NCBI GenBank assembly: GCA_021108295.1
Contig: JAIORF010000102.1
Span: forward strand, 391,041-455,040
Reading direction: 5' to 3'
Length of the DNA: 64,000 nt
DNA from: a bacterium
GTDB taxonomy: Bacteria; Patescibacteriota; Dojkabacteria; SC72
Under the pieces are notes generated by a model. That model did no database searches and was not told the DNA's origin. It worked only from the letters and a program-made list of their open reading frames with translations. The position numbers and the translations under genes were made by a program. Position 1 is the first letter of the stretch. Every line of letters starts with the position of its first letter. This document shows, one piece after another, positions 3,218-60,195 of this stretch.

Positions 3218-3927
3218 TTCTTTCTCCTATCACAATTTACACACTTCTCATAGCCACCACTTTTAATACACTCCCATATCTCAATTGGATTACCTTCGCA
3301 TACAATCTTTCCATTGAGCATGACATATGCACTATCCATCTTAAATTCTTTGAGTATAGATCCTGTATGGGTTGTGATAATGAGACTTTTCTTTTTAGAG
3401 GTGTTTTTTAAGTACTTAGATATCCTATCTATATTTTCTAAATCAACACCAGAGTCTAGTTCATCTAGTAGGTAGGTACTAATATTTTTAAGAAGGGAGA
3501 GGGTAAAGAGTTCTAAACGCTTTGTCTCACCGCCTGATAGGTTGTAGTTAATGTCTCTATCTAAGAATTCTTCTATACCCAAGCTGTCAATCTTTTTCTT
3601 CACATCATCATACTCAATCTCATACTGTTCCATCAGGTCTTCAAGTTTAACTCCTTTAATACTTACTCCTTTTTGAGCAATATATCCAATACCTAAATCA
3701 ACTCTTTGATTAATTGTCTTTTTTAATATGCTTTTTCCATCAATCAAGATATCTCCTTTTACAATATTGTAGCTATTCATACCCATGATTACTCTAAAGA
3801 GGGTACTCTTTCCGCAACCGTTTGGACCGAAGAGTACTGCCTTCTCTCCATTCTTTATCTTAAGGTTAATATCTTCAAGTATTTTCTTTCCTTCTACTTC
3901 GACTGTAAGGTTTTTTATCGTTATCAT
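3214..3927 (-). CDS. sufC: Fe-S assembly ATPase SufC (ABC-type ATPase)
   Basis: 237 aa. Walker A GPNGCGKST, ABC signature LSGGETKR, Walker B LLDELDSGVD. Translationally coupled to the downstream SufB/D gene. Confidence 0.75.
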   Translation of the reverse strand: MITIKNLTVEVEGKKILEDINLKIKNGEKAVLFGPNGCGKSTLFRVIMGMNSYNIVKGDILIDGKSILKKTINQRVDLGIGYIAQKGVSIKGVKLEDLMEQYEIEYDDVKKKIDSLGIEEFLDRDINYNLSGGETKRLELFTLSLLKNISTYLLDELDSGVDLENIDRISKYLKNTSKKKSLIITTHTGSILKEFKMDSAYVMLNGKIVCEGNPIEIWECIKSGGYEKCVNCDRRKK

Positions 3928-3963
3928 CCCCCCATTATATTAAAATGGAGTATAATTAGCTAG

Positions 3964-4614
3964 ATGGATATTAAAAAGTTTGAAACATTAAAACAGTTAC
4001 ATGAATACTACAGTGAAAACAATAGGTGTGGTCTAAAAAAAGTTGCTACACAACCGGTATATGAGATACACCCTCCTACTTCTGGTATTGTATTCATTGG
4101 AGAAGCCCCTGGGAAGAATGAAGATTTAGAGGGCGAACCTTTTGTAGGTGCTGCTGGTAAGTTCTTAGATGAGATGCTAAAGAGCATAGGATACACAAGA
4201 AAGGATGTATATGTAAGCAATGTAGTTAAATACAGACCTCCTAGTAACAGAGATCCAACAGATATTGAAAAGAAGGATTGTAGAGTATGGTTGAATGCGG
4301 AGCTACTCTTTCTAAAACCTAAAGTAATCATACCTCTAGGTAGACACGCACTAGAGAGATTTGTAGAGGGTGCTAGAATATCCGCTTCTCATGGATCAGC
4401 TTTTTCTCACCCTTCCAATATCCCAATCTTTGCTATGTACCATCCTGCTGCTGCACTTTACAACCCTAATCTTAGAGCTGTCCTACTAGACGATTTTAAA
4501 AAACTCAAAACTTTTTTAGATGGAGGAGGGGAGGTGGGTAAAAAACAAGCTAAGAAACCTACTCCTACGAATCATGCAAAGAGGAAAGCTGTTAAAGATA
4601 TCCTAGACCTTTAA
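3964..4614 (+). CDS. Uracil-DNA glycosylase, family 4 type
   Basis: 216 aa. Motif A GEAPGKNEDLEGEPFVGAAG and motif B HPAAALYNP are typical of family 4/5 UDGs. Confidence 0.7.
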   Translation: MDIKKFETLKQLHEYYSENNRCGLKKVATQPVYEIHPPTSGIVFIGEAPGKNEDLEGEPFVGAAGKFLDEMLKSIGYTRKDVYVSNVVKYRPPSNRDPTDIEKKDCRVWLNAELLFLKPKVIIPLGRHALERFVEGARISASHGSAFSHPSNIPIFAMYHPAAALYNPNLRAVLLDDFKKLKTFLDGGGEVGKKQAKKPTPTNHAKRKAVKDILDL

Positions 4615-4713: not shown

Positions 4714-5937
4714 ATGAAGAAATACGATTTAATAATCATTGGTGGTGGTGCTTCTGGTCTAATGGCTGGGATATTTGCTAAGGATAGAGGTTTAAACTTT
4801 CTAATCATAGAGAAGAATGATAGGGTTGGAATGAAGTTGGGTATCACAGGTAAGGGTAGGTGCAATATTACCAACTACATTACCGATCTAGATGATTTAG
4901 TGAATAAATATACACACAATGGTAAGTTTCTTTACCATGCTTTCAATGAGTTTGGTGTACAAAATACTTTTGATTTCTTTGAGAAAAGATTAAACATACC
5001 TCTTAAGGTGGAGAGGGGTAAGAGGGTGTTTCCTAAGAGTGAGAAGTCGTTGGATATTGTAAATGCTTTTTACAATGAGCTTAAAGAAAACATACTTCTT
5101 GAAACAACGGTTAAGGAGATAAAGAAGGAAGGGAATAGAATATCGGAAGTAGTTACGGATAAGAGGGAGTATATTGCAGATCACTACATACTAGCTACAG
5201 GTGGCAAGACATACCCTGTTACTGGTTCTACAGGAGATGGTTATACTTTCGCAGAGAGTTTGGGTCATACACTACATCCTACCTACCCTGTACTTTTGGG
5301 TTTTAAGTGTAAGGAGTCTTTTGTAAAGGATTTAGCAGGTTTGTCTTTAAAGTTCGTAAATGTTTCTGTATTTAGGGATGGGAAGGTGTACAAGGAAGCG
5401 TTTGGGAGTATGTTATTTACACATGATGGTATTAGTGGTCCTACAATATTAAATCTTTCTCAGTATACCTCTGATATGTATGAGGAGGGTTTTGAGGTTA
5501 GTATTGATCTTAAACCAAGGGTAGAGTTTAGTGAATTGGATGGGAGAGTAAATGAGTTGTTGAGGGATAGTGGGGGTATACAAATTAAGAATGTGTTGGG
5601 TTATCTTATGCCTAAGTCCCTTATACCTGTAGTTTTAGAGCTTTCACTCCTTATTCCAGAGAGGGAGTGTTGTCATATTACTAGGGAGGAGAGGTTGAGG
5701 TTAGTGAATGTATTAAAGGGTATATCTCTTCGTGTTTATGGTCATGAGGGTTGGGAGAGGGCTGTAGTTAATACAGGGGGTGTTGATATTAAGGAGGTAG
5801 ACCCTAATACAATGGGTTCTAAGATTATTAAGAATTTGTCTTTTACTGGAGATGTTTTGGATGTTTTTGGTCCTACAGGTGGTTTTAATTTACAGATTGC
5901 TTGGAGTAGTTCATTTATTGCTGTGGAGGGGCTATAG
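4714..5937 (+). CDS. HI0933/YhiN-like FAD-dependent oxidoreductase (aminoacetone-oxidase family flavoprotein)
   Basis: 407 aa. N-terminal Rossmann dinucleotide fold YDLIIIGGGASGLMAG. Length and spacing of the GG motifs fit the HI0933-like family. Confidence 0.6.
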   Translation: MKKYDLIIIGGGASGLMAGIFAKDRGLNFLIIEKNDRVGMKLGITGKGRCNITNYITDLDDLVNKYTHNGKFLYHAFNEFGVQNTFDFFEKRLNIPLKVERGKRVFPKSEKSLDIVNAFYNELKENILLETTVKEIKKEGNRISEVVTDKREYIADHYILATGGKTYPVTGSTGDGYTFAESLGHTLHPTYPVLLGFKCKESFVKDLAGLSLKFVNVSVFRDGKVYKEAFGSMLFTHDGISGPTILNLSQYTSDMYEEGFEVSIDLKPRVEFSELDGRVNELLRDSGGIQIKNVLGYLMPKSLIPVVLELSLLIPERECCHITREERLRLVNVLKGISLRVYGHEGWERAVVNTGGVDIKEVDPNTMGSKIIKNLSFTGDVLDVFGPTGGFNLQIAWSSSFIAVEGL

Positions 5938-6205: not shown

Positions 6206-6317
6206 ACTACTTCCTTTGAAGAAATTAGATGTTATGTTTATTGTATAAACTTTTCTTTCTTAAGTAAATAATTCATAGTAAAAACCGATACACTTCAAAG
6301 AACTGATATAATCACCT

Positions 6318-7922
6318 ATGAAAAACTCATTTGAAATATTCAACCAAATAAAAAACAAAAAGAGTTGGAAAGAAAACTCCCTCCAAAAAATCCTCAAACA
6401 ATACCCAAAAGAAGGAAAAGGACTCTACAGACATGACGAACTAGTACAAACATACAAAAGCTTAACCAAGGAAAAGAAAATTAAACCAAACAAGTTAATA
6501 GAACAAAGAATAAGGATGAAACCAACAAGAACCCAATCAGGAGTAACAATAGTAACCGTACTAATGAAACCATACCCCTGCCCAGGACAATGCATATTCT
6601 GTCCCAACGAAAAAAACATGCCCAAAAGCTACATATCCTCCGAGCCCGGAGCACAGAGAGCACTAACACACGACTTTGACCCATACGACCAAACAAGAAA
6701 CAGAATAGAAGCCTTGCAAAACATAGGACACAACACAGACAAGATAGAATTAATAATACTAGGAGGGACATGCTCCGTATACCCTGAGAACTACCAAATA
6801 TGGTTTGTAAAAAAATGCTTCGATGCAATGAACAGCTTTGATAAAGATTACAAAATAGAAAACATCTCTCAAAAAGACATTACATGGAAAGACCTCTACA
6901 AAACCCACACCTTCAACGAAACCACACTCTGTAGAAATGTAGGACTAGTACTTGAAACAAGACCAGACTACATCAATGAAGAAGAAATAGTGAGACTAAG
7001 AAAACTAGGCGCTACTAAAATACAGATAGGAGTACAATCACTAGATGATGAAATACTCAAACTAAACAAAAGAGGACATAGTGTAAAAGAAACTAAGGAA
7101 GCATTCAAACTTCTAAGACTAGCAGGCTTCAAAATACACTCCCATATTATGCCTAACCTCTATGGCTCTAACCTTAAGAAAGATATTAGAGATTACAAGA
7201 AACTCTGGACTAAACACTACTCCCCTGATGAACTTAAAATCTACCCTACCTCCATTATTCCAAACACTCAACTAGAACAGCTATACAAAGATGGTAAATA
7301 CCTCCCCTATACACACGAACAACTACTAAAATACTTCCTACATACACTCCCAATCACTCCTAGATATGCAAGACTAACTAGGATAGTGAGAGACATACCC
7401 TCAAATGAGATAGTAGCAGGAAACAAGTCTACCAACTTTAGACAGATAGCGGAGAAAGAGATAACAAAACGAAAACTTTCTATACAAGACATCAGAAGTA
7501 GAGAGATAAAGGAGAGAAATGTGAAGTGGGATGATATAGAAGAGGAAATTATTAAATACAAAACATCGGTAAGTACAGAGTACTTCATCTCTTACAAAAC
7601 AAAAGATACAGATCAAATATGTGGTTTCTTAAGACTTTCAATACCAAAGAAAAGATTAAGAAAGAAACACTTTATAAAAGAGTTAAGAAATTCTTCGATA
7701 ATAAGGGAGGTACATGTATATGGTTCTGTAGTAAACATTGGAGATAGTAGTAAGGGAGAACCACAACACTTAGGACTAGGTAAGAAGTTAATAGAGAGAG
7801 CAGAAGGTATATCAAGAAGAAAGAATTTTAAGAAAATCTCAGTAATTTCAGCAATAGGTACTACAAAGTATTATGAGAAAAGAGGGTATGTTAAAGATGA
7901 ACTATTTATGAACAAAGCATAA
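6318..7922 (+). CDS. elp3: Elp3-like radical-SAM / GNAT acetyltransferase (tRNA wobble-uridine modification enzyme homolog)
   Basis: 534 aa. RTQSGVTIVTVLMKPYPCPGQCIFCPN carries the CxxxCxxC radical-SAM cluster motif in the Elp3-typical context. The C-terminal GNAT fold carries the Q-H-x-G-x-G acetyl-CoA motif (QHLGLGKKLIERAE). Size matches Elp3. Confidence 0.7.
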   Translation: MKNSFEIFNQIKNKKSWKENSLQKILKQYPKEGKGLYRHDELVQTYKSLTKEKKIKPNKLIEQRIRMKPTRTQSGVTIVTVLMKPYPCPGQCIFCPNEKNMPKSYISSEPGAQRALTHDFDPYDQTRNRIEALQNIGHNTDKIELIILGGTCSVYPENYQIWFVKKCFDAMNSFDKDYKIENISQKDITWKDLYKTHTFNETTLCRNVGLVLETRPDYINEEEIVRLRKLGATKIQIGVQSLDDEILKLNKRGHSVKETKEAFKLLRLAGFKIHSHIMPNLYGSNLKKDIRDYKKLWTKHYSPDELKIYPTSIIPNTQLEQLYKDGKYLPYTHEQLLKYFLHTLPITPRYARLTRIVRDIPSNEIVAGNKSTNFRQIAEKEITKRKLSIQDIRSREIKERNVKWDDIEEEIIKYKTSVSTEYFISYKTKDTDQICGFLRLSIPKKRLRKKHFIKELRNSSIIREVHVYGSVVNIGDSSKGEPQHLGLGKKLIERAEGISRRKNFKKISVISAIGTTKYYEKRGYVKDELFMNKA

Positions 7923-7991: not shown

Positions 7992-8522
7992 TTATCTCGA
8001 GGGAACGCCCTCCTTTTTCTTCTCTACTTTTCTACGAGCAAACTCTATATTTACAATATATTTTAAAAACCTCTTAAGTAGTGTACTATAGCTATGATTA
8101 GGAACAATAATCTTATAAAGTTTATCCACTCTTAGAAGATACTCTATTAAAGAATAGAAATCCCCATCACCAGAAGCAATTATACACTTATCATAATTCT
8201 CTACCTCCAGCATAACACTAATCACTAACTCTACATCAACATTCCCCTTCACAACATATACACCATTCCTCTTATACCTAACCGTCGGCTTAAAAACTAA
8301 TTCATAACCAGAACCCCTAAGGTATTTATACAATTTCTCATTTGATTTTATATACCCAAGAAAAAGATAAGCCTTTTTAACATTATATTTATCCTTAAGA
8401 TATACCCTAAATCTCCCAAAATCCAACTCCCAACCAAGAGATCTAACCCCAAGATTAAGATTCTGACTATCAATAAAAGCATATACAACACTAGAGTGTC
8501 TATCCATAACAATATCATACAC
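7992..8522 (-). CDS. NYN/LabA-like (PIN-like) domain protein, putative RNase
   Basis: 176 aa. FIDSQNL...GNVDVELVISVM...ASGDGDF matches the conserved acidic residues of NYN/LabA domains. Confidence 0.6.
   Translation of the reverse strand: MYDIVMDRHSSVVYAFIDSQNLNLGVRSLGWELDFGRFRVYLKDKYNVKKAYLFLGYIKSNEKLYKYLRGSGYELVFKPTVRYKRNGVYVVKGNVDVELVISVMLEVENYDKCIIASGDGDFYSLIEYLLRVDKLYKIIVPNHSYSTLLKRFLKYIVNIEFARRKVEKKKEGVPSR
7999..8022 (+). terminator. Putative rho-independent terminator after elp3 (GAGGG-AACG-CCCTC + T-tract), overlapping the last codons of the convergent NYN gene
   Basis: A 5-bp GC-rich stem with a 4-nt loop, followed by CTTTTTCTTC on the + strand, about 75 nt downstream of the elp3 stop. 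Confidence 0.35.
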
Positions 8523-8555: not shown

Positions 8556-8631
8556 ATGGTGGGTGTACAGGGACTCGAACCCTGAACCTAACGATTAAGA
8601 GTCGTTTGCTCTACCAGTTGAGCTATACACC
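8556..8631 (-). tRNA. tRNA-Lys (anticodon CUU), CCA encoded
   Basis: Reverse complement GGGTGTATAGCTCAACTGGTAGAGCAAACGACTCTTAATCGTTAGGTTCAGGGTTCGAGTCCCTGTACACCCACCA folds as a 76-nt cloverleaf: 7-bp acceptor GGGTGTA/TACACCC, anticodon loop CTCTTAA (anticodon CTT), T-loop TTCGAGT. Confidence 0.85.
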
Positions 8632-8662
8632 CAGAATGCTTGTAATCATACCAAGATAAAAT

Positions 8663-10777
8663 CTATTTTTCAACCACAATACGCTTTACAACCACATCTA
8701 AAGCAACTAATATTGCACCATCTGAGAGACTCTTTACATCCATTTCTTCAACACTTACAATCGTATACTCTGTATCCAAAACTTCAATACTGTAATTCCC
8801 CTCATCTACAACAAAACGATAACGCCCCTTACCATCAGTCACCCTCTTCCCCACTATCTTCTTATACTCAACATCTCGTAAACCAATCGCCACATTACTC
8901 AACACACCACCACCCTTCTCTCTAACAACACCATATGCAAGACCCTTCTTAAACAAAGCTTTCGTCACTAACAAGAATGAAGGAATATACAAAGCAATGA
9001 TTAAGAAGTTCAAGATATCAGGATTATTGTAATAAGCATAAAAACTAAACACTAAACCAAAGAGGAATAGAATTGGACTTAAAATCTTTATCAAAATCTT
9101 CATCCTACCACGCATCACAATCATGAACCTACCAAACCATTTGAGTTCCAAAGAATCAAGAGGGATAGAAAACTCTGGGATAATATCATTCTTTACACTA
9201 AATGTATCACCATGATAAATATCTCGTAAAGGATAATCCTCCTTACCAAAAATACTCTTAGATGGGAAACTATACATATTGGAAGACACCTCCAACCTAT
9301 ACTCTCCATCAGGCATAGCAAGATTAAAGAAACCCCTACTACCGGTAACATCCGTCCAAATTAATTTCTTCTCTAAATTGTAAACACGAACAACAGCCTG
9401 AGAGATTGGCTCCTTCGTACCACTATCATAAACATAACCAGAAAGAACACCTTTCTTTCTTAAACCTAACCATGACAACAAACCAAGAAACAATTCAAAC
9501 AGATATATTGGAATATATATCAACCCCCCCAGAAGCGAACCTAGACCAACAGTAAATGTCGCAACTGTAACTGCAGTATTAATACCCTCTAACTCATCAC
9601 CCTGGAAATCACCAAACGCATTCCACAAAACCCCTTTAGTAGTATCTATAATGTCCCTTATCACCCTAACTATAAACGTAGGAACGGGAGCTGGAGGGTC
9701 TGGATCATCAGGCTCAGTTGGATCTCCTGGATCACTCCATTCAGGTATTGATAATTCAATATCACACAATGAAGTCTGGTTACCCACCGTATCAAAAGCA
9801 TCTACACAGAAAGAATACTCAGAGAAAAGATAGGCAATACCATCCTTCTCCAATTCACTAAGCTGAATGACTGTAGTATACACCGAACCATTCGCAGTAG
9901 TAGTTCCACAAGCATATTTAGACCCATCTTGTCTTACACACAAGAATTCAACACTCTCCAAAGACAGATTATCCTCCACCCTATACACTATCTCTACCTC
10001 ATACCCAGATTCCCATTCAACAGTATTGTTCTCACCAATATCACCTACAGACATCAATTCTATTACAGGCCCCTCACTATCTTGCACACTATACACCACA
10101 TTTGACCAACCACCCTGTCCACCATAGCTATTACGTGCCCTCACTCGATAAAAATACATCACCTCATTCTCTAAACTATCAAACTCAAACATAGTACCAC
10201 TCAACCAACCACTAGACTGCTTTACAATACTGAAATCACTATACCTACTTACCTCAATATTGTATTGATAATTAGAACCCAAAGAGTTCCAAAACAAACT
10301 ATTACTATTCCCTTGTGTAAACGCAGGCTCAGCCACTAAAGTCGGTACTCCCACTGGAGTAACATACAATGTAGCACAATCAATTATACTAATCGTAAGC
10401 CCACTATCTGTAATATCATTCGCACATATGGTGTAGGTACCAGGAGTAGCAGCAGACACTTCCACAGTAATTCTACCCTGAGAATTAGACGGAGTGGTTG
10501 GTTGAGTGAAATCTAAACCACTAGCTAAAAGTTCGATATAATGGTTGGGTTGTGGAGCATAACTACTATTTAGAATAGTCACAATAACTGTAGTATCCTC
10601 CATTATCTCTACAGTACTAGGAAACACTTCTACAGTAGAAAATGTGTCTTCTGAAATAGTTGCACTAATATCCACATCACCCTCAAAAGTCACATACTCA
10701 TCTGCAAAAACAAACATTGGGGAAAACAAAAGACATAATAGAAAAACATATATTTTTACAATTCTAGGCAATATCAT
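8663..10777 (-). CDS. Secreted/membrane-anchored surface protein: signal peptide, Ig/FN3-like domains, Pro/Asp linker, C-terminal [TM / CarbopepD_reg-like / TM-TM / CarbopepD_reg-like] anchor module
   Basis: 704 aa. Signal peptide MILPRIVKIYVFLLCLLFSPMFVFA. FN3-like segment (YQYNIEVSRYSDFSIV...YFYRVRARNSYG). PDDPDPPAPVPT linker. The C-terminal ~300 aa are homologous to the C-terminus of the 2013-aa protein at 42594..48635. Confidence 0.6.
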   Translation of the reverse strand: MILPRIVKIYVFLLCLLFSPMFVFADEYVTFEGDVDISATISEDTFSTVEVFPSTVEIMEDTTVIVTILNSSYAPQPNHYIELLASGLDFTQPTTPSNSQGRITVEVSAATPGTYTICANDITDSGLTISIIDCATLYVTPVGVPTLVAEPAFTQGNSNSLFWNSLGSNYQYNIEVSRYSDFSIVKQSSGWLSGTMFEFDSLENEVMYFYRVRARNSYGGQGGWSNVVYSVQDSEGPVIELMSVGDIGENNTVEWESGYEVEIVYRVEDNLSLESVEFLCVRQDGSKYACGTTTANGSVYTTVIQLSELEKDGIAYLFSEYSFCVDAFDTVGNQTSLCDIELSIPEWSDPGDPTEPDDPDPPAPVPTFIVRVIRDIIDTTKGVLWNAFGDFQGDELEGINTAVTVATFTVGLGSLLGGLIYIPIYLFELFLGLLSWLGLRKKGVLSGYVYDSGTKEPISQAVVRVYNLEKKLIWTDVTGSRGFFNLAMPDGEYRLEVSSNMYSFPSKSIFGKEDYPLRDIYHGDTFSVKNDIIPEFSIPLDSLELKWFGRFMIVMRGRMKILIKILSPILFLFGLVFSFYAYYNNPDILNFLIIALYIPSFLLVTKALFKKGLAYGVVREKGGGVLSNVAIGLRDVEYKKIVGKRVTDGKGRYRFVVDEGNYSIEVLDTEYTIVSVEEMDVKSLSDGAILVALDVVVKRIVVEK

Positions 10778-17902: not shown

Positions 17903-19414
17903 TTGTTCATTTCTATAGTGCATAATGGAGGTATGGAACAAATATTAAAAATATTACTGCTTTTCTTAATACCAGTATCTGCACATAGTGATATTGTTGT
18001 GTTTAATGGTAATCCAGTAGATATTGTATGGAGTGAGTATGGGGAGGAGTATGAGTATATGGTGGAGATATATCAGTACAAGAGTGAGGAGGAGATACTT
18101 TTCTATACATCAGATTGGATGTTGGAGAGTAGTATACAGGTAGAGATTGAGGAAGAGGGTTCTTATATATGGAGGGTATATATTAAAGAGATTGGGAAGG
18201 TTTGTAGTGATGATCATCAGTGTTTTAATATTGAAACAGGATATTTTGATTTCTATTTCCCACCATCTATACCAGAAAAGCCTCCTTTAATTCCTGATGA
18301 GGAGATTGGGGAGAAGGTTGTAGATCTTAATCCTCCTGTTGGCGAAATTCTTGGAGCTACTACAGAGTATATTGCTAAAGAAGAGTTCAAACCGAAGAAA
18401 GAAGACAAAGAGGAGAGTATGGATGTTGAGAAAAGGAGTGGAGCAAATGAGTGTACTTATAGCTACATTATGTCAAAAAAGAAATATATTCTAGATGGGT
18501 GTAATATTGCTCTCCCATCAATTTCTGAATCTACCTACTCTAAATACAATGACCAGTATGTTGTGTCTTCCAAGGGTAAGTATCAAAACACTCTTACAAT
18601 TCATATCAATGATATTGTATGTAGTAAGTTTGATCTACTACACCCTTCTACATGGTTTGGGTGTGAGGAGAATGTGGTGAACAGGCATGAGTGTATGGTT
18701 GATTTAGATCATGAGGTATATTTCTTTAACAAGGGAGTTGTTTCTCCCACTAATTTTGTTTTTAATCGTGAGACTTTTGAGATATCTAAAGTCTTAAGTA
18801 ATTTACCTACAGCTTTAGTATTCAAAGGATATTTCTCACTAAGACACAGTGGTGAGTGGTTGGATCAGGAGTTAGTGTTTAAAAAGAAAACTTCTTTTAC
18901 AGAGATTGAGGCTCCTACAAGTGGAATATATTCATTTCCTTTCAAGAGATTGATTCCTGTAAACCAATGGCATGGGTGTACGAGGTATCAGTGTCCTCAT
19001 GCTGGTATAGATTTTGCGTCAGGGAAGGAGAAAATATATGCAAGTGGAGATGGTGTAGTTGTTTCTGCTAAGCAAAGTACTCCTTACAGTGAGTGTGGGA
19101 ATAGTGGGAAGGCTATAGTGCTCGAATTGGATACTGGTCAGTACATGTCTTACATGCATTTGAGTAATATTAGGGTTAGGAGTGGAGATATTGTAAAGAG
19201 GGGAGATTTGTTAGCTGTAAGTGGTAATACTGGGACATTTAACTGTCAACCGTTGGGATATCATCTTCATTTTGAGTTAAGGGAGGGTAGGTGGCAGGCT
19301 AGTCATATTGATCCAGTTCCATATATTGATATTGATTGGAATCTCATCCATACTAACAAGAAGGATATATTCCCTGGTAGGTTGAGTGGTGATAATCCTC
19401 ATCCTAGTTTTTAA
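17903..19414 (+). CDS. Secreted M23 (LytM-type) metallopeptidase with large N-terminal domain
   Basis: 503 aa. Signal peptide. C-terminal HAGIDFA ... SGNTG ... GYHLHFE gives the HxxxD and HxH zinc ligands of the M23 family. Confidence 0.7.
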   Translation: MFISIVHNGGMEQILKILLLFLIPVSAHSDIVVFNGNPVDIVWSEYGEEYEYMVEIYQYKSEEEILFYTSDWMLESSIQVEIEEEGSYIWRVYIKEIGKVCSDDHQCFNIETGYFDFYFPPSIPEKPPLIPDEEIGEKVVDLNPPVGEILGATTEYIAKEEFKPKKEDKEESMDVEKRSGANECTYSYIMSKKKYILDGCNIALPSISESTYSKYNDQYVVSSKGKYQNTLTIHINDIVCSKFDLLHPSTWFGCEENVVNRHECMVDLDHEVYFFNKGVVSPTNFVFNRETFEISKVLSNLPTALVFKGYFSLRHSGEWLDQELVFKKKTSFTEIEAPTSGIYSFPFKRLIPVNQWHGCTRYQCPHAGIDFASGKEKIYASGDGVVVSAKQSTPYSECGNSGKAIVLELDTGQYMSYMHLSNIRVRSGDIVKRGDLLAVSGNTGTFNCQPLGYHLHFELREGRWQASHIDPVPYIDIDWNLIHTNKKDIFPGRLSGDNPHPSF

Positions 19415-19438: not shown

Positions 19439-19999
19439 ATGCATCTAGAGCAGTTAATTCTTTCCTTACTTTTCTTTTTGGTTAAAGTAGATGTTTTAAA
19501 AACAGAGAGGTATAGGTTGGATATTAGGCCTGTAGCTCCTGTGTATTGGGTTAGCAATGAGGATATATTGGTGAATGAGGGGGAGAGAGGTTATCTATAC
19601 AGTGTTGTAGAGAGAGAGGTGGTAGAAGAGTTTGAGAAAGAGGGGAATCAGATATTGGGATATTGTGATATGGATGTACTGATATGTGAATGGGAGAACA
19701 GGGAGATGGAGTCACCAGAGGAGTATTCTACACATTTAATACAGGAGGGTAGTGATGGTGAGAGGGTTGTAGATATTGAGCTAAAGCCTACAGTAGAGGT
19801 AGTAGAGTGTAAAGAAAAGATTATTCTTAGAACAGTAGCTCCTGTAGAGGAGAAGTTGTTTGAGTTTAGTGATGATTTGTATGAGGTAGAGGATTATCAA
19901 GAGGACATGTTTTCTCCAAACTTTAGGAAACTACTATCTAAAGATGATTTGGGGAGTTACTGGATTACAGAGTTTGGGTTTAATCTACACGCTTTCTAA
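19439..19999 (+). CDS. Hypothetical acidic protein downstream of M23 peptidase
   Basis: 186-aa ORF with an N-terminal hydrophobic segment and a Glu-rich body. No recognisable motif. Confidence 0.3.
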   Translation: MHLEQLILSLLFFLVKVDVLKTERYRLDIRPVAPVYWVSNEDILVNEGERGYLYSVVEREVVEEFEKEGNQILGYCDMDVLICEWENREMESPEEYSTHLIQEGSDGERVVDIELKPTVEVVECKEKIILRTVAPVEEKLFEFSDDLYEVEDYQEDMFSPNFRKLLSKDDLGSYWITEFGFNLHAF

Positions 20000-21157
20000 A
20001 ACCTTTATTGTTTCTTTTACTGTTTTCTCCCAAGAGAATAGTTTTACTCTGTCTAAACCTTCTTTTATTAAAGATTTTCTTAAGTCTTCATTCGTGTATA
20101 TATCAAACATGGCCTTACCAACTTCCTCCATATTTAAACCATCTACTAATATTCCTGCTCCTCCTAGTACTTCTGGGTAACAGGATCCATTATGAGCAAT
20201 GACTGGAGTTCCTGCTTTCATACCTCCAACAAGAATAATACCAAAGCCTTCATACAAGGAAAGATGTAGCATAGCGATAGAGTTAGATAGGAGTTGCTTT
20301 ACTTGATTGTCTTCGTAAAAGCCTGTGAGTATTATATGTTCCTCAAGCCCTTTGTTCTTTATATATTCTCTAAACTCCCTTGCAGAAGGATTGTCTTTAA
20401 CAAAATTCCCTCCAGCAATTATCATATATGGTACATTCTCTTTAGATGGTATTCTACTTAGGAAATCTTTATATCCATCCACTACTCCTTTAGAGTTTTT
20501 ATTTTCGTATACAGTACCTCCTATGTATATGTAATATCCTTTTTCTTTATAGTCTGGTGGTAACTTTTCATCCCATTGTGCGTCAGTTCCTTCTAACACG
20601 GCGTCTAAGTATATTGTTTTAACTTCTTCTTTGTTGTATTTAGGGAAATATTTAAGGAAATCCTTTTTAGTTTGATTGCTGTTGACCACTATATATTTAC
20701 AGTATTTAGCTTTTCTGAGTTCTAACCAGTAGAGGATCTTTTTTATAGAGTTGTTGATTTTGTTTTTTTCAGAATAGATATTAAAAAGAGGGAGAATCAT
20801 ATCGTGGATCATTAGTACTGTTGGGATATGTAGTGATGGTATTCCAGCCCAGAAGTATGGACAGAAGTATATGGAGTTTTTTTGTTTTATTTTTAGTATG
20901 TTTGGTAAGAGTTGTATTAGATACCAGAGGTAGTTTTTATAGTCTGATTTTCTTAGTTTTCCTATTCGAATAATTTCTACGTTTTCTCTTTCTTTTTCTA
21001 ATGTTTTGTCTAATGTACTTTGAGCATCAAAAAGGAGGATTGATATCTTTATATCTTTGTAATTAAGGAGTTCTTTAACAACATTCTTTGTATATTTACC
21101 AATACCGTGGTGTTTAAGTTCGTTTTGAGTTGTGGTACAGTCAATTATTAGGTGCAT
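19985..21157 (-). CDS. Glycosyltransferase family 4
   Basis: 390 aa. EGFGIILVGGMKAGTPVIAHNGSCYPEVLGGAG GT4 C-terminal motif. Confidence 0.65.
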   Translation of the reverse strand: MHLIIDCTTTQNELKHHGIGKYTKNVVKELLNYKDIKISILLFDAQSTLDKTLEKERENVEIIRIGKLRKSDYKNYLWYLIQLLPNILKIKQKNSIYFCPYFWAGIPSLHIPTVLMIHDMILPLFNIYSEKNKINNSIKKILYWLELRKAKYCKYIVVNSNQTKKDFLKYFPKYNKEEVKTIYLDAVLEGTDAQWDEKLPPDYKEKGYYIYIGGTVYENKNSKGVVDGYKDFLSRIPSKENVPYMIIAGGNFVKDNPSAREFREYIKNKGLEEHIILTGFYEDNQVKQLLSNSIAMLHLSLYEGFGIILVGGMKAGTPVIAHNGSCYPEVLGGAGILVDGLNMEEVGKAMFDIYTNEDLRKSLIKEGLDRVKLFSWEKTVKETIKVLESV

Positions 21158-48500: not shown

Positions 48501-48635
48501 GGCATCATAACAACTTTGATGATAAGCCGCATAGGCTAGGTGTTTGTATGTCGAAAAGAAGGCAAAAGATACCACAAATGAGAAAGTAAGAACGGCTAAA
48601 GAGAGTATTTTAAAATCTAACTTGTCTTGTTTCAT
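42594..48635 (-). CDS. Giant (2013 aa) secreted surface protein: signal peptide, Cys-rich N-domain, 2x tandem ~300-aa [Ig-like + LamG/ConA-like lectin] repeats, Ig-like and beta-rich domains, CGNGxxDDGEECD Cys-rich repeat, C-terminal [TM / CarbopepD_reg-like / TM-TM / CarbopepD_reg-like] anchor
   Basis: Uninterrupted 6 kb ORF. N-terminal hydrophobic signal. 17 Cys in residues 40-130. Residues ~161-461 and ~462-762 are ~70% identical repeats containing a LamG-like core (WLLGT...YIDGVEDN...FAIGARPTGG). Myxococcus-type Cys repeat CGNGVLDDGEECD. C-terminus is homologous to the 8663..10777 product. Confidence 0.7.
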   Translation of the reverse strand: MKQDKLDFKILSLAVLTFSFVVSFAFFSTYKHLAYAAYHQSCYDACKADSAMPSDEDCGIACDTTNSFSECSISMRNVITTEGDAYGYCDSHSDYGKRECSDMCYSMQGETFFDCLDYCMAGCDPDCVDEYEIDYGVGFYAVFVMFDFCGELPMDGTYPTITLDQDFYFRSFTGSVNITGSVTDNVDIVAVNLYSVDSDSTTPCTLFGVFPTQTFSCDTENLLIDKSYKFEVKATDSVPYETIEDVLVELDVDNEEDLVALWRFDDDVNWMAEDINSMTPTNHGASQNSDGYTTDSLECSGGYITIDDSAELLSFDEADSSFKVEAMIKSNTYALSHSRIAGKYNAADNENSWLLGTDTTRVYCAIWIDGTQRSVNSTSALNIDEWYNVGCEWGAGDRQLRVYIDGVEDNVLDLSGVAGSLASSTNDFAIGARPTGGNRFDGLVDNVKVYSCETVDITDPVITLDQDFYFRSSTGSVTITGSVTDDTDIASVNLYSVDSNNTTSCTLFGVFPTQTFSCNTEVLSTDQSYKFEVKAMDAATNEAIEDVLVELDIDNDKDLVALWRFDDDLNWLAEDINSMSPTNHGATQNSDGYTTDSLDSSLGYMTVDDSAEVLSFDQDDSAFMVEAMIKHDSYAGDHVRIAGKYNATNSENTWLLGTHNTSQVYCAVWINGIHQGLYSTATLNVDQWYSVGCKWSAGDEQLRVYIDGVEDNTLDLSGAENPLASSTNDFAIGARPTGGSRFEGLIDNVKIYTYEIGDGHAPKIEFDPIDDPSAITDTTPTISGSITDPDLCEYAEYLVLDTSYLWAPDDIDDYTWTEFLPADGVWSTEEEDFSITLDEFTTEGGYHIYIRARDVYENASFYYHNGWIINYSIDSDYIMANRLFTLEFIDNSPPTIEPNEVQPNPSINKDLDILGYVEDYVSDTRSAIDTVEYSLDGGAWESVTILTSSGDGFEKEFMVDLSNLSIAEHSVRIKASDVEGNETADDYQVCYDDCMNTGLQDEEMCECSCDSHKKQSIQTVTFEIIEADVPDPELEEHTITFEDNSSVDSVNTSSIVGRSRIRLPLDYQFDLELELYTNKNDFGALYGEKLIGVDEALDGNLWLRFDDGTFGYYNVSTDALVRYPAVWAEAVKMIGITEFEHGGNKFLAIELENDYPLTIYSVGNTLTDTSDDSYDNYSILLGVNSSLLYVQIDTRGAYPCIYAIIANESIHGPSTAEMIWIDTQGTIDTIADDVATTWDAGDGIGGNHVSLLLDEARNRVVAGDYSADNVSYCDDNGTPSNKADDVCVVSSGDYTAGPIFDILVDDNGWYWFAGDDGVSATYVDDLATLNSDAYYPFFPKAELGSQRALKIAWIDNTEKGTEELLISTREGSIFAFDYNATYDDAFDDTVVSYTFPGELYGSYVAFDMIFDTPGADIAWLMMPGAGLYRLDIVRSFEPESDVIIWPEVQASEVNVDHFTLNSITGALVNNIDAFVSNDNGVNWYPVEIGGTVDFPTSDCQMKIKLVLDKVGEDTPVVLGISISYATYGEDPFLTSELNIDYPPTAPVGGDFDTEVLMLDELGLTPNWNGDIVVNAYRAVGGGDASYCFEFDIPTEIISGESVIGTTAWCSGTYNIRATIDDGRSVLGSNIVVSGFTSPEEEELCGNGVLDDGEECDPEMEGELPLCLEMDEKYVGGSVMCSNFCEYEYTECEEESILDPLIELITEVDEDGEVGLNVDAIVSLATTVAALSLLLVSLNTLPYYMLRALIGLLNLFRRKKAELEYGFVYDSLTKEPIARAIIRVIDMEGKVVETMVTGSFGEFYGDLEPGNYTLHVRKPGFDFPSSVITTSTDRNISNVYTGSLHISGTDVESVVAIPIDPIDASFGKKFVVGLLSRGSVWIMLLKFVVFVGLFVYSLVIYQQDASIINLLILVIYGLLSTLLVINSFEKRIRYGVVMDGQGNVLEGVKVVIKEREFEETVGERITDVKGRYRFVIKPGDYSLSIVSNGESLSGGAIEKTEKSPMIVNMDVVLK
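46350..48155 (-). repeat. Intragenic tandem duplication, 2 x ~903 bp (codons ~161-461 and ~462-762 of the giant protein)
   Basis: The two protein repeat units align end-to-end at ~70% identity. On the + strand the two ORF-track shadow ORFs (46393..46578, 47299..47640) are near-identical copies offset by ~906 nt. Confidence 0.8.
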
Positions 48636-51366: not shown

Positions 51367-52212
51367 GTGGAGAGAGATGTAATTGACAAAAAAGAAGATT
51401 CTACTGCTCTACATATATTCACACTTTTTGTTGTTGTGTTAATTGTCGGCTTACCTATTTACGGGTATTTCAAACTTAAGCCAGATACTGTTGTTAATCA
51501 AGAAGAAAGAATTGAAGAAGAAAAGAGTATAGATGGGGAGGTTTTAGATGAGGAGAGCACTCCTCTTGTCGGGAAGGGATACATAGAAGAGATAGTTGAG
51601 ATAGAGGGGCAGTGGGCATATATTGTTGTTCCTGCATATATTGATATTGAGAACTTACCTACACTTGTGATTTACAATCATGGTTCTCTTACCTTTGTAG
51701 AGGAGGAGATGGATGAGGAGTTTAAGTGTAAGCTTTTGGAGTATGGGGAGGCTTTCACTGTACATAATTATACATTTGCTGTTTCTAATGCTCATGGTGT
51801 TAATTGGGGAAGCCTAGATTCGATTAATGATAATTATAGTATGTATGAATATATCAAGGAGAAGTATGGGATACAGGAGGGGATATATGAGATAGGGTTT
51901 AGTATGGGGGGACTACCTGCTATGAATTTTGCTACTACCTATCCTGAATTAGTCGATAAAATTGTACTACTAGCTCCTACTACAAGAACTGGAGAGTGGG
52001 ACAAAGATAGGGTTGAGAAGATAGAGGGTATAGATATTAAGATATGGCATGGGGATAGTGATATTAATGTTGGTTTAGTATATACACAGAATTGGGTAAA
52101 TAAAATAGAAAGTTTTGGAAAGGATATAGACTTAGTCATTCTTGAGGGTCAAACTCATTGGGATATAGATACAGAGTATATTGATGAAATACTAGAGTTT
52201 TTCTCTGATTAG
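51367..52212 (+). CDS. Alpha/beta-hydrolase-fold esterase/lipase-like protein
   Basis: 281 aa. N-terminal TM. Nucleophile elbow GFSMGG (G-x-S-x-G). Confidence 0.55.
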   Translation: MERDVIDKKEDSTALHIFTLFVVVLIVGLPIYGYFKLKPDTVVNQEERIEEEKSIDGEVLDEESTPLVGKGYIEEIVEIEGQWAYIVVPAYIDIENLPTLVIYNHGSLTFVEEEMDEEFKCKLLEYGEAFTVHNYTFAVSNAHGVNWGSLDSINDNYSMYEYIKEKYGIQEGIYEIGFSMGGLPAMNFATTYPELVDKIVLLAPTTRTGEWDKDRVEKIEGIDIKIWHGDSDINVGLVYTQNWVNKIESFGKDIDLVILEGQTHWDIDTEYIDEILEFFSD

Positions 52213-60178: not shown

Positions 60179-60195
60179 TATCAAACAGAATATCT

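What the first reader, a model, noticed from the sequence alone, without database searches (positions are those of the whole stretch)
6318..7922. Elp3 homolog (radical-SAM + GNAT) in a bacterial context, with coding-strand composition unlike its neighbours
The protein carries the Elp3-specific radical-SAM context (RTQSGVTIVTVLMKPYPCPGQCIFCPN) and a C-terminal GNAT motif (QHLGLGKKL). Elp3 is universal in archaea and eukaryotes for U34 tRNA modification, and rare in bacteria. The gene is a compositional outlier: its coding strand is extremely A-rich (about 50% A in sampled stretches) with C>G. Most other genes here have G>C coding strands whatever their orientation (e.g. 4714..5937, 17903..19414, 51367..52212 on +, and all minus-strand genes). 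That contrast suggests horizontal acquisition, possibly from an archaeon, or a recent inversion. It is a monocistronic unit flanked by a divergent promoter and a hairpin terminator.
Basis: partly seen in the sequence, partly recalled or inferred. Interest (0 to 1): 0.65.

Follow-up and report, generated by a model that had tools for sequence, protein, structure and literature searches.

The report
Native Elp3 gene with odd codons
This is an ordinary, already annotated tRNA-modifying enzyme gene (Elp3) that a group of tiny uncultured bacteria has carried at the same chromosomal spot for a long time; its odd A-rich codon usage is real but is not a sign of recent foreign origin.

Summary
ORF 6318-7922 (+) encodes a 534-aa Elp3. 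It scores 496 bits on NCBIfam TIGR01211 (cutoff 350). All catalytic residues are present and the AF2 model matches solved Elp3 structures. The identical protein is already in NCBI, annotated as Elp3.

The compositional anomaly is real. The gene is 44.6% A. At 4-fold sites it is A .56, C .20, G .05, T .19. Its synonymous chi2/df of 7.0 is the highest of 57 ORFs. It is the extreme of a continuum shared by about six other ORFs, and its GC content is normal.

Recent transfer or inversion is not supported. Elp3 sits at the same site and in the same orientation (UDG ... Elp3 ... 704-aa protein-RecO-Bac_transf-GT4-GT4-SecA) in eight related Dojkabacteria-like CPR genomes with 58-84% identical Elp3. 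The window's identities track those of its flanking genes.

In an NJ tree the gene falls in a 14-member clade (bootstrap 94). That clade lies inside a larger group (bootstrap 74) whose identifiable members are bacterial, mostly lacking the Zn-Cys triad, and which excludes the archaeal, Dehalococcoides and human references.

The codon bias is strongest in the window and its closest relative, and falls from 5' to 3' along the gene. Its cause is unexplained. Interest is low to moderate.

The parts
6304..6312 (+). Extended -10 promoter element TGaTATAAT, ending 5 nt before the ATG. This implies a leaderless or near-leaderless Elp3 mRNA.
   Evidence: Read from the sequence. The same element at the same 5-nt spacing occurs in orthologous loci L001 (TGATATAAT) and L002 (TGGTATAAT). 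L003 has the element further upstream, followed by AAGGAG. No -35 match was reported. Function is inferred.
6318..7922 (+). Elp3 gene, 534 aa: tRNA wobble-uridine (U34) C5 carboxymethyl-type modification enzyme, radical SAM + KAT/GNAT.
   Evidence: TIGR01211 E=9.6e-149, 496 bits against a cutoff of 350. PDB hits: MinElp3 8e-99, DmcElp3 1.6e-87, human and yeast Elp3 about 4e-84. The identical protein is in NCBI as MCD4811892.1, annotated Elp3. AF2 model pLDDT 89.9; Foldseek TM 0.86 to human ELP3 8ptx_C.
6318..6518 (+). N-terminal extension (aa 1-67), basic (18 K/R against 7 D/E), predicted helical. Equivalent to the tRNA-binding N-terminus of archaeal and eukaryotic Elp3, which DmcElp3 lacks.
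   Evidence: Composition. Helices 4-13, 21-27, 39-51 and 59-65 at pLDDT 84-92. The alignment to DmcElp3 starts at query residue 68. The role of the N-terminus in MinElp3 is described in PMC6367351.
6579..7178 (+). Radical SAM core with the [4Fe-4S] cysteines C88, C92 and C95 (CPGQCIFC, Cx3Cx2C) and the catalytic Lys K142 (TDK).
   Evidence: PF04055 E=5e-18. Residue mapping onto Dmc K77 / Min K150. The spacing matches DmcElp3 and differs from the archaeal Cx4Cx2C and the human Cx9Cx2C.
6837..6878 (+). About 14 aa of insertion relative to Min, Dmc and human Elp3, at a length-variable loop of the radical SAM domain.
   Evidence: HMMER alignments show a 14-residue gap in all PDB Elp3s. The segment is 25 aa here against 11 in the references, with a median of 63 aa in the surrounding 67-member clade.
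7224..7463 (+). Radical_SAM_C domain (aa 303-382).
   Evidence: PF16199 E=6e-19.
7476..7505 (+). Position of the Zn-binding Cys triad of archaeal and Dehalococcoides Elp3 (CRCIRCRE). Here it reads LSIQDIRSRE, with no cysteine.
   Evidence: Alignments. 58 of 67 sequences in the surrounding clade also lack all three Cys. The description of the Zn motif is from PMC6367351.
7509..7919 (+). KAT/GNAT domain with E464, H466, Q483-HLGLG-488 (acetyl-CoA binding) and Y518. [quoted passage not shown]
   Evidence: Weak Pfam GNAT hits (PF13673 E=6e-4, below the gathering score), but full-length alignment to the Elp3 KAT domains. Residue mapping to Dmc E386/H388/Y441 and Min Q461/H463/Y517. pLDDT.
7999..8022 (+). 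Terminator-like hairpin GAGGG-AACG-CCCTC followed by CTTTTTCTTC. It lies 77 nt after the Elp3 stop and overlaps the last codons of the convergent NYN-domain gene.
   Evidence: It is a consensus match only, not enriched over shuffles.

Best explanation
The ORF is a functional, vertically inherited Elp3 of a Dojkabacteria-like (WS6, CPR/Patescibacteria) bacterium.

Mechanism (inferred from the family, not tested here). The stand-alone enzyme binds tRNA through its basic N-terminal extension and the cleft between its two domains. It cleaves SAM at the C88/C92/C95 [4Fe-4S] cluster to make a 5'-deoxyadenosyl radical. It takes the acetyl group of acetyl-CoA bound in the KAT domain and attaches a carboxymethyl group to C5 of wobble uridine 34.

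Evolution and expression. The gene has sat at one chromosomal site, head-on to its neighbours, throughout this clade. It is probably transcribed as a leaderless monocistronic mRNA.

Composition. The A/C-rich coding strand is a bias at synonymous sites that arose in place. It is strongest in the window and its closest relative. It is not a trace of recent foreign origin or of an inversion. Which force keeps it is not established.
For: Identity.
- TIGR01211 scores 496 bits against a cutoff of 350, and full-length hits cover all solved Elp3s.
- C88/C92/C95, K142, K272, E464, H466, Y518 and QxxGxG are all conserved.
- The AF2 model has pLDDT 89.9 and TM 0.86-0.92 to human, yeast, archaeal and Dehalococcoides Elp3.

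Vertical descent.
- More than 100 clusters share 57-84% identity and the same length.
- The named relatives are Dojkabacteria or CPR MAGs.
- Gene order and orientation are conserved in L001, L002, L003, L005 and L021-L024, and partly in L004 and L006.
- The window's Elp3 identity (84/73/70/68/66/60/60%) ranks like that of RecO, Bac_transf and the 704-aa protein (Spearman 0.88-0.99).
- The 14-member clade has NJ bootstrap 94/100. It lies within a 67-member clade (74/100) that excludes the Min, Dmc and human references.
- That clade shares derived characters: Cx3Cx2C, no Zn triad, and a long variable loop.
- GC content is normal.

Bias arose in place.
- Against L001, 140 synonymous third-position differences give the window a net A+35, C+23, G-13, T-45. 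The adjacent HI0933-like gene went the other way.
- The bias varies among orthologues at the same site.

Leaderless mRNA. TGnTATAAT lies 5 nt before the ATG in the window, L001 and L002.
Against: - No enzymatic or tRNA-modification data exist for any CPR Elp3.
- The deep topology of the NJ tree is poorly resolved. Named CPR Elp3s fall into three separate clades, so the gene may have entered CPR lineages laterally in the distant past.
- Within the clade, L003 shows Elp3 and its right flank with discordant relatives. Exchange between related lineages, or an assembly chimera, therefore occurs at this locus.
- The cause of the codon bias is not identified. The strand effect alone is weak (medians 0.48 for + and 0.43 for - strand genes, p=0.11).
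- Only 64 kb of the genome could be analysed, and it holds no ribosomal-protein genes to serve as a reference.
Confidence: 0.85

Rival explanations
1. Recent horizontal acquisition, possibly from an archaeon. The deviant composition would be the donor's signature.
For: The codon usage is the most deviant in the window (chi2/df 7.0). The best PDB hit is archaeal MinElp3. A tRNA-Lys gene lies 635 nt downstream.
Against: - The site and orientation are the same in eight relatives with 58-84% identical Elp3.
- Divergence tracks the flanking genes.
- GC content equals that of the window.
- The archaeal reference ranks 66th of 169 in distance to the window.
- It differs in Fe-S motif spacing and has a Zn triad.
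- The orthologue in L001 shares the bias only in part, and the difference is made of many individual synonymous changes.
Confidence: 0.02
2. Recent inversion. The gene recently switched replication strand and still carries the skew of the other strand.
For: The gene's coding strand has C>G and A>T, roughly the mirror image of most genes here.
Against: - The orientation relative to RecO...SecA and to UDG is conserved in all eight full syntenic loci.
- An inversion carries the coding strand with it. A gene that had had the usual G/T-rich coding strand would keep it.
- The bias (4-fold A .56, C .20) is stronger than the mirror of the average gene (A .45, C .12).
- The bias is graded along the gene.
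Confidence: 0.01
3. Long residence on the lagging strand. The gene is head-on to replication, and a replication-strand mutation bias (C->T and A->G on the - strand) drives its coding strand to A/C, unopposed because the gene is weakly transcribed.
For: - 43 of 57 ORFs are on the - strand, which is G/T-rich throughout.
- A + strand block at 58859-62494 shows the same A/C bias.
- In L011 every + strand gene is C/A-rich at third positions and every - strand gene is G/T-rich.
- The excess changes against L001 are T->C (34 against 10) and G->A (31 against 15) on the + strand.
Against: - The + strand genes next door (HI0933-like at 4714-5937; M23 peptidase at 17903-19414; 51367-52212) are strongly G/T-ending although equally syntenic.
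- The + against - difference in the window is small and not significant (0.48 against 0.43, p=0.11).
- Some - strand genes (19985-21157, SecA) are also A/C-leaning.
- A uniform strand effect does not give the 0.89 -> 0.57 gradient within the gene.
Confidence: 0.3
4. Selection on codon choice. A- and C-ending codons are the Watson-Crick matches of U34 and G34 anticodons, and they are favoured in this gene for speed or accuracy of translation, above all in the conserved radical SAM part or at the start of a leaderless mRNA.
For: - The bias affects all codon classes in the cognate direction.
- It is strongest in the 5' two thirds, which encode the radical SAM domain.
- All nine orthologues have the first third at least as biased as the last third.
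- 25 of 31 long genes in the window show a weaker 5'>3' decline.
Against: - The other genes sharing the bias (a DUF3048 protein, hypothetical proteins, a GT4 glycosyltransferase, YibE/F) are not obvious highly expressed genes.
- No ribosomal-protein or EF-Tu genes are in the window to define preferred codons.
- L002 has the opposite third-position skew in the same gene.
Confidence: 0.2
5. Ancient lateral origin. Elp3 entered several CPR and other bacterial lineages separately in the distant past, ultimately from archaea, and has since been inherited vertically in the Dojkabacteria-type clade. This is compatible with the best explanation.
For: - Named CPR Elp3s fall into three well-supported but separate clades: the Dojkabacteria type (94), a Moranbacteria/Patescibacteria type (98) and a Gracilibacteria/Peribacteria type (100).
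- DmcElp3 groups with the archaeal reference.
- The Elp3 literature treats bacterial Elp3 as exceptional (PMC7663514).
Against: - Deep branches of the NJ tree are very short and weakly supported (11-45%).
- Most sequences have no taxon label.
- The tree has no outgroup.
Confidence: 0.4

Closest known systems
Methanocaldococcus infernus Elp3 (MinElp3; PDB 6IA8, 6IAZ, 6IAD), stand-alone archaeal Elp3
   Same: - Best sequence match among solved structures (E=8e-99, aligned over residues 55-533).
- Same two-domain fold (TM 0.91 normalised to the target).
- Same stand-alone enzyme with an extended basic N-terminus, which in MinElp3 gives high-affinity tRNA binding (PMC6367351).
- Catalytic K150, K266 and Y517 are conserved as K142, K272 and Y518.
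   Different: - The Fe-S motif is Cx3Cx2C (CPGQC) here, not Cx4Cx2C (CPHGKC).
- The Zn-binding CRCIRC triad is absent here.
- This protein has a 14-aa insertion in a radical SAM loop.
- It has E464 where Min has Q461.
Dehalococcoides mccartyi Elp3 (DmcElp3; PDB 5L7J, 5L7L, 6IA6), the bacterial Elp3 studied so far
   Same: Bacterial host. Same Cx3Cx2C spacing (CPGKCIYC). E386, H388, Y441, K77 and K193 are all conserved here. Same fold (TM 0.89-0.91 to the target).
   Different: - DmcElp3 lacks the N-terminal extension (its alignment starts at query residue 68) and binds tRNA weakly.
- It keeps the Zn triad.
- In the tree it groups with the archaeal reference, not with the window's clade.
Eukaryotic Elp3 (human 8PTX, yeast 6QK7 and 8ASW), catalytic subunit of Elongator
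   Same: Best structural match of the whole model including the N-terminus (8ptx_C, TMq 0.86). Like this protein, it lacks the Zn-Cys triad. Same catalytic residues.
   Different: Eukaryotic Elp3 works inside the six-subunit Elongator complex. Its Fe-S motif is Cx9Cx2C. It is the most distant of the three references in sequence (rank 164 of 169).
MnmE/MnmG, the usual bacterial route to xm5U34
   Same: Acts on the same atom (C5 of wobble U34) of tRNAs that read NNA/NNG codons (PMC7663514).
   Different: Unrelated proteins and chemistry (GTP, FAD and methylene-THF with glycine, giving cmnm5U). Whether this genome also encodes MnmE/MnmG could not be tested. None is in the 64-kb window among the ORFs annotated.

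Membership tests
Elp3 (NCBIfam TIGR01211) | Full-length match to the curated family model above its cutoff | tested here: met
   496.2 bits against a cutoff of 350, E=9.6e-149, covering residues 9-533 of 534 and model positions 4-520 of 522.
Elp3 (NCBIfam TIGR01211) | Radical SAM domain with three cysteines for the [4Fe-4S] cluster | tested here: met
   C88, C92 and C95 in CPGQCIFCP. PF04055 E=5e-18. The cysteines are invariant in 45 close homologues.
Elp3 (NCBIfam TIGR01211) | C-terminal KAT/GNAT domain with an acetyl-CoA site (QxxGxG) fused to the radical SAM domain | tested here: met
   Q483-HLGLG-488. Full alignment to the KAT domains of Min, Dmc and human Elp3. The Pfam GNAT models alone are below their gathering scores (20.2 against 23.6).
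Elp3 (NCBIfam TIGR01211) | Active-site residues shown by mutagenesis (Min K150, K266, Q461, Y517; Dmc K77, K193, E386, Y441) | tested here: met
   K142, K272, E464 and Y518 sit at the aligned positions and are invariant in the 45-sequence alignment.
Elp3 (NCBIfam TIGR01211) | Elp3 fold: radical SAM and KAT domains packed around a cleft | tested here: met
   Predicted only. AF2 pLDDT 89.9, pTM 0.88. The Foldseek top 11 hits are all Elp3, with TM 0.85-0.92 normalised to the target. The next hit is at E=2e-7 and TM 0.3.
Elp3 (NCBIfam TIGR01211) | [quoted passage not shown] | tested here: not met
   LSIQDIRSRE in place of CRCIRCRE. The triad is absent from 58 of 67 sequences in the surrounding clade. 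It does not define the family as a whole, since eukaryotic Elp3 lacks it.
Elp3 (NCBIfam TIGR01211) | Basic N-terminal extension used for tRNA binding (archaeal and eukaryotic type) | tested here: met
   67 residues before the core, with 18 K/R against 7 D/E, predicted helical.
Elp3 (NCBIfam TIGR01211) | Catalyses cm5U34 formation on tRNA with SAM and acetyl-CoA | not testable with these tools
   Needs biochemistry. Only one tRNA gene (Lys-CTT, not a U34 tRNA) is in the window.
Recently acquired foreign gene (genomic islet) | Absent from the same site in related genomes | tested here: not met
   Present at the same site in L001, L002, L003, L005 and L021-L024, and with the right-hand junction in L004 and L006.
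Recently acquired foreign gene (genomic islet) | Atypical G+C content or flanking mobility genes | tested here: not met
   GC 0.351 against 0.347. The neighbours are UDG, an HI0933-like flavoprotein, a small membrane protein and an NYN-domain protein. No integrase or transposase is present.
Recently acquired foreign gene (genomic islet) | Atypical codon usage | tested here: met
   Chi2/df 7.0, the highest of 57 ORFs. It is a matter of skew, not of GC, it is shared in part by orthologues, and other native-looking genes show it too.
Recently acquired foreign gene (genomic islet) | Phylogeny discordant with the flanking genes | tested here: not met
   For pairs that involve the window, Elp3 identity ranks like RecO, Bac_transf and the 704-aa protein (Spearman 0.99, 0.93 and 0.88 without L003). 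L003, not the window, is discordant.

The most novel reading that the evidence does not exclude
Dojkabacteria-type CPR bacteria, and many other bacteria in the same clade, may use a distinct bacterial Elp3 subfamily as their route to C5-modified wobble uridine, perhaps in place of MnmE/MnmG. This subfamily has no Zn triad, uses Cx3Cx2C, has a long variable loop and keeps the basic N-terminus. In addition, the extreme and 5'-weighted A/C-ending codon usage of the gene may be held by selection, for example through translation of a leaderless mRNA or decoding by the very U34 tRNAs that the enzyme modifies, rather than by mutation bias.
Probability: 0.12. Interest if true: 0.55.

Novelty: already known. 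Interest (0 to 1): 0.22.

Why it matters
The gene itself is routine. The exact protein is already annotated as Elp3 in NCBI.

Two points have modest value.

1. The structural and biochemical Elp3 literature that I could search still describes bacterial Elp3 as confined to Dehalococcoides (PMC7663514). Here Elp3 turns out to be a stable, syntenic gene of a whole CPR clade. It belongs to a large group whose identifiable members are bacterial and which has its own sequence characters. That bears on how small-genome bacteria modify wobble uridines, and on choosing a better bacterial model enzyme than the weakly active DmcElp3.

2. The case is a caution. A strong deviation in skew and codon usage, with normal GC, was not a mark of horizontal transfer.

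Tried and rejected
- Rfam and tRNA scans of the window found only tRNA-Lys(CTT) at 8557-8632. U34 substrates could not be examined.
- Literature searches for Elp3 together with Patescibacteria, candidate phyla radiation or Dojkabacteria found nothing relevant. Glatt et al. 2016 (PMC5018218) is not held.
- Polarising the window/L001 synonymous differences with L002 and L003 as outgroups was inconclusive. There were 30 against 15 assignable changes, 51 ambiguous ones, and a parsimony bias towards T/A ancestors.
- An antisense promoter inside Elp3, as a cause of the 5' bias, was not found. Only weak 5/6 extended -10-like matches lacking the first T turned up, and they coincide with conserved codons. 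Rejected as evidence.
- The antisense ORFs inside the gene (6481-6828, 7307-7588 and others) are low-complexity mirror images of a K/E-rich gene. They are not in phase with its third positions. Rejected as genes (and my own frame arithmetic).
- The class-I methyltransferase in the window (54640-55281) is not related to the methyltransferase that sits beside Elp3 in other bacterial lineages. That methyltransferase has no diagnostic match to Trm9 (E=0.02 among many class-I methyltransferases).
- Cluster names gave little taxonomy because the long product names are cut before the organism name.
- The apparent unannotated gap at 39236-40158 is simply a second GFO/IDH/MocA gene (39216-40244, -) that my greedy ORF filter dropped.
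Full report
1. WHAT IS THERE

ORF 6318..7922 on the + strand encodes 534 aa from an ATG. It matches NCBIfam TIGR01211 (Elp3) over its whole length at 496 bits, against a curated cutoff of 350. The next family, MnmL/YtqA, scores 63 bits. Pfam finds Radical_SAM, Radical_SAM_C and weak GNAT matches.

Among solved structures the best sequence matches are:
- archaeal MinElp3 (E=8e-99);
- Dehalococcoides DmcElp3 (1.6e-87);
- human, yeast and mouse Elp3 (about 1e-83).

The three Fe-S cysteines are C88, C92 and C95. The residues shown by mutagenesis to matter in MinElp3 and DmcElp3 (PMC6367351) are all present, as K142, K272, E464, H466 and Y518, together with Q483-HLGLG. They are invariant in 45 close homologues.

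An AlphaFold2 model built on that alignment has pLDDT 89.9 and pTM 0.88. [quoted passage not shown] The eleven best Foldseek hits in the PDB are all Elp3. The best is human ELP3 bound to tRNA (TM 0.86 over the whole model, N-terminus included).

The identical protein is already in NCBI (MCD4811892.1, on a 472-kb contig), annotated as Elp3.

2. THE COMPOSITIONAL OBSERVATION IS REAL

The coding strand is 44.6% A and reaches 52-54% in the first 300 nt. It is the most single-base-rich 1.6-kb stretch of the window.

The bias lies at synonymous sites:
- 4-fold sites are A .56, C .20, G .05, T .19, against about .35, .07, .12, .45 in typical genes;
- C/(C+T) in two-fold pyrimidine codons is 0.60 against about 0.2;
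- the synonymous chi-square per degree of freedom against the rest of the window is 7.0, the highest of 57 ORFs;
- the A/C fraction at synonymous third positions is 0.72, against 0.43 +/- 0.11 for the other ORFs.

Three qualifications apply.

- GC content is normal (0.351 against 0.347).
- The gene is one end of a continuum. A DUF3048 gene (58859-60178; 0.68, chi2/df 5.8), three hypothetical genes after it, a GT4 glycosyltransferase on the - strand (19985-21157; 0.65), SecA and YibE/F all lean the same way. Other genes are as extreme in the opposite direction (57368-57772: 0.15; NYN: 0.23; the 704-aa protein: 0.25).
- The bias is not uniform along the gene. It falls from 0.89 in codons 1-134 to 0.57 in codons 403-534.

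3. CONTEXT AND TRANSCRIPTION UNIT

The neighbours are SufBD and SufC (-), UDG (+), an HI0933-like FAD protein (+, TIGR00275), an 80-aa membrane ORF (-), Elp3 (+), an NYN-domain protein (-), tRNA-Lys(CTT) (-), a 704-aa surface protein (-), RecO, a Bac_transf sugar transferase, two GT4 glycosyltransferases, a hypothetical gene and SecA (all -). Elp3 is therefore a lone + strand gene between - strand genes.

An extended -10 element (TGaTATAAT, 6304-6312) ends 5 nt before the ATG, and there is no Shine-Dalgarno sequence. The same element at the same spacing is present in L001 and L002. This points to a leaderless mRNA, which is an inference.

A small GC hairpin with a T-run lies 77 nt after the stop, inside the end of the convergent gene. 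Such matches are not enriched in this region.

4. THE TEST OF 'FOREIGN OR INVERTED'

A scan of one genome per GTDB species found 15 loci encoding an Elp3 relative, plus one distant radical-SAM match in a Bacteroidales MAG. Those at 60-84% identity come from MAGs labelled Dojkabacteria, 'bacterium' or, in one submitter's series, Saccharibacteria. Those at 38-47% come from Moranbacteria, Gracilibacteria, Peribacteria and other Patescibacteria.

- Synteny. In L001 (84%), L002 (73%), L003 (Dojkabacteria UBA4813, 73%) and L005 (60%), and in four further genomes fetched through their proteins (L021 Dojkabacteria, L022, L023, L024; 58-70%), Elp3 lies between UDG (with or without the HI0933-like gene or NDK) and the 704-aa-protein-RecO-Bac_transf-GT4-GT4-hyp-SecA block. 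It always points towards that block. The truncated contigs L004 and L006 (60-63%) keep the Elp3/704-aa-protein junction.
- Divergence. The window's Elp3 identities to these genomes rank like those of RecO, Bac_transf and the 704-aa protein (Spearman 0.99, 0.93 and 0.88 when L003 is left out).
- Exception. L003 is discordant. Its Elp3 resembles the L002 group, while its right flank resembles the L005 group. This indicates recombination between related lineages or an assembly chimera in that MAG, not in the window.

The conserved site and orientation exclude a recent acquisition and a recent inversion.

5. PHYLOGENY AND SUBFAMILY CHARACTERS

A search of 1.84 billion representative proteins gave 987 clusters at E<=1e-30. 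I aligned 169 sequences: the best representatives, close homologues, translations from the named CPR loci, and the MinElp3, DmcElp3 and human sequences recovered from the PDB alignments. I built an NJ tree on 501 columns with 100 bootstraps.

- The window falls in a 14-member Dojkabacteria-type clade (94/100).
- That clade lies inside a 67-member clade (74/100) that contains Candidatus Amarolinea dominans (Chloroflexota) and a GC-rich bacterium whose Elp3 neighbourhood includes a sigma-54 activator.
- The three reference sequences lie outside this clade and group together.
- The Moranbacteria-type (98/100) and Gracilibacteria/Peribacteria-type (100/100) CPR clades also lie outside it.

Deep branches are short and weakly supported, so the ultimate origin of bacterial Elp3s is open.

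Sequence characters agree with the tree.
- In the 67-member clade, 58 sequences lack all three Zn-binding cysteines. Here CRCIRCRE is replaced by IQDIRSRE.
- All 65 of its sequences that cover the motif use Cx3Cx2C.
- The radical SAM loop that is 11 aa long in the references is long and variable (25 aa here, median 63).
- The archaeal type around MinElp3 has CPHG(K/R)C (Cx4Cx2C), and human Elp3 has Cx9Cx2C.

Unlike DmcElp3, the window's protein keeps a 67-aa basic N-terminal extension. In MinElp3 this region provides most of the tRNA affinity.

6. WHAT THE CODON BIAS IS, AS FAR AS IT CAN BE TAKEN

Synonymous sites between the window and L001 are not saturated: 65% of codons are identical at conserved residues. 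The 140 third-position differences are strongly directional, with the window at a net A+35, C+23, G-13, T-45. They are mainly T->C (34 against 10) and G->A (31 against 15). The adjacent HI0933-like gene differs in the opposite direction, and most other neighbours are balanced. Polarisation with outgroups was inconclusive.

The orthologues at the same site vary. Third-position GC and AT skews are -0.08/+0.26 in L001, -0.13/+0.16 in L003 and +0.39/-0.08 in L002.

A 5'>3' decline in A/C-ending codons is seen in all nine Dojkabacteria-type orthologues, but not in the Elp3 genes of six more distant loci (L009-L012, L019, L020). A weaker decline is seen in 25 of 31 long genes of the window.

So the bias is a property that evolves in place and is strongest in the window/L001 lineage. 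Two candidate causes remain:
- a replication-strand bias acting on a weakly transcribed head-on gene;
- selection for A- and C-ending (cognate) codons.

The strand effect alone is weak in this window (p=0.11), and no reference set of highly expressed genes is available here. I could not decide between the two.

7. MECHANISM

Shown here: family membership, catalytic residues, predicted fold, stand-alone gene, conserved locus.

Inferred from the family (PMC6367351, PMC7663514): tRNA binds through the basic N-terminus and the inter-domain cleft. tRNA binding triggers use of acetyl-CoA in the KAT domain. SAM is cleaved at the Fe-S cluster, and a carboxymethyl group is transferred by a radical mechanism to C5 of U34.

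Not tested: activity, the substrate tRNAs, later steps of the pathway, and whether MnmE/MnmG are also present.

8. COMPARISON, NOVELTY AND VERDICT

The gene is a member of the Elp3 family by every defining feature that could be tested. It is already annotated as such in the public record.

It differs from the two prokaryotic model enzymes in lacking the Zn triad. It also differs from DmcElp3 in having the N-terminal extension and from MinElp3 in its Fe-S motif spacing.

The reviews I could read still describe bacterial Elp3 as restricted to Dehalococcoides, and no paper in the library links Elp3 with CPR bacteria. The breadth seen here is therefore under-described, but it is not surprising given the database annotation.

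Its explanation by horizontal transfer or inversion is refuted by one of its own stated criteria. Interest is low to moderate. What remains unexplained is the strong, graded synonymous bias.

Noticed in passing
window 6304-6320; L001 about 9583-9599; L002 about 9987-10003: An extended -10 element (TGnTATAAT) lies exactly 5 nt before the Elp3 ATG in three orthologous loci, with no Shine-Dalgarno sequence. This suggests a leaderless mRNA. L003 instead has the element further upstream, followed by AAGGAG.
   Followed up: partly
window 6318-7922, and orthologues in L001, L002, L003, L005, L021-L024: The A/C-ending codon bias falls from 0.89 (codons 1-134) to 0.57 (codons 403-534). All nine Dojkabacteria-type orthologues have the first third at least as biased as the last third, whereas the Elp3 genes of six more distant loci (L009-L012, L019, L020) do not. 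25 of 31 long genes in the window show a weaker decline of the same kind. The cause is unknown.
   Followed up: partly
window 58859-62494 (+): A block of four + strand ORFs (a DUF3048 protein and three with no Pfam match) has the same A/C-ending codon usage as Elp3 (chi2/df up to 5.8). The next ORF (MiaA, 62487-63380) is ordinary.
   Followed up: partly
window 57368-58773 (-), 7992-8522 (-), 8663-10777 (-): These ORFs are extreme in the opposite direction. G/T-ending codons make up 75-85% of synonymous sites in a HAD hydrolase, an unknown 334-aa protein, the NYN protein and the 704-aa surface protein. Codon usage in this genome is unusually heterogeneous from gene to gene.
   Followed up: no
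L020 5037-5696, L019 4690-5448, L011 about 9206-9832, L008 about 3419-4030: A class-I SAM methyltransferase (27% identical between L019 and L020, E=3e-24) lies beside or near Elp3 in four distant bacterial lineages. These are two Moranbacteria, the sister group of the Dojkabacteria-type clade, and a GC-rich bacterium. It is absent from the window and from the Dojkabacteria-type loci held here. It could be the enzyme for a later step such as cm5U methylation, but the match to Trm9 is not diagnostic.
   Followed up: partly
protein P0132 (850 aa), residues about 190-500: One Elp3 homologue carries an insert of about 300 aa in the variable radical SAM loop. The insert looks by eye like a DUF559/Vsr-type endonuclease domain flanked by repeated TPPLAKGAGGNLE peptides, as if a mobile element had inserted in frame. 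Many other homologues have inserts of 50-200 aa at the same site.
   Followed up: no
L003 (DHFX01000016.1, Dojkabacteria UBA4813): Its Elp3 is closest to L002 (81%). Its RecO, Bac_transf, GT4 and 704-aa-protein genes, on the right of Elp3, are closest to L005, L021 and L024 (66-79%). This indicates a recombination breakpoint next to Elp3 or a chimeric MAG contig.
   Followed up: partly
window 4714-5937 (+); L001 6903-8126; L002 8223-9449; L022 8769-9989: An HI0933-like FAD protein (TIGR00275, 'aminoacetone oxidase family') lies just upstream of Elp3 on the same strand in several genomes. In L022 it ends only 11 nt before the Elp3 start, so the two may be co-transcribed there. A functional link was not examined.
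   Followed up: no
window about 21200-42500 (-): A long same-strand glycan-synthesis cluster. It holds two Wzx-like flippases, several GT4 and GT2 transferases, a UDP-GlcNAc 2-epimerase, a DegT aminotransferase, hexapeptide acyltransferases, a UDP-glucose dehydrogenase, two GFO/IDH/MocA oxidoreductases and a PMT_2-like protein. Its 21-36 kb part has lower GC (0.29-0.33) than the rest of the window (0.35-0.40).
   Followed up: no
window 42594-48635 (-) and 8663-10777 (-): A 2013-aa protein (Laminin_G_3, Ig-like and CarboxypepD_reg domains) and the 704-aa protein beside Elp3 both end in CarboxypepD_reg-type domains and are strongly G/T-ending. They are probably cell-surface proteins.
   Followed up: no
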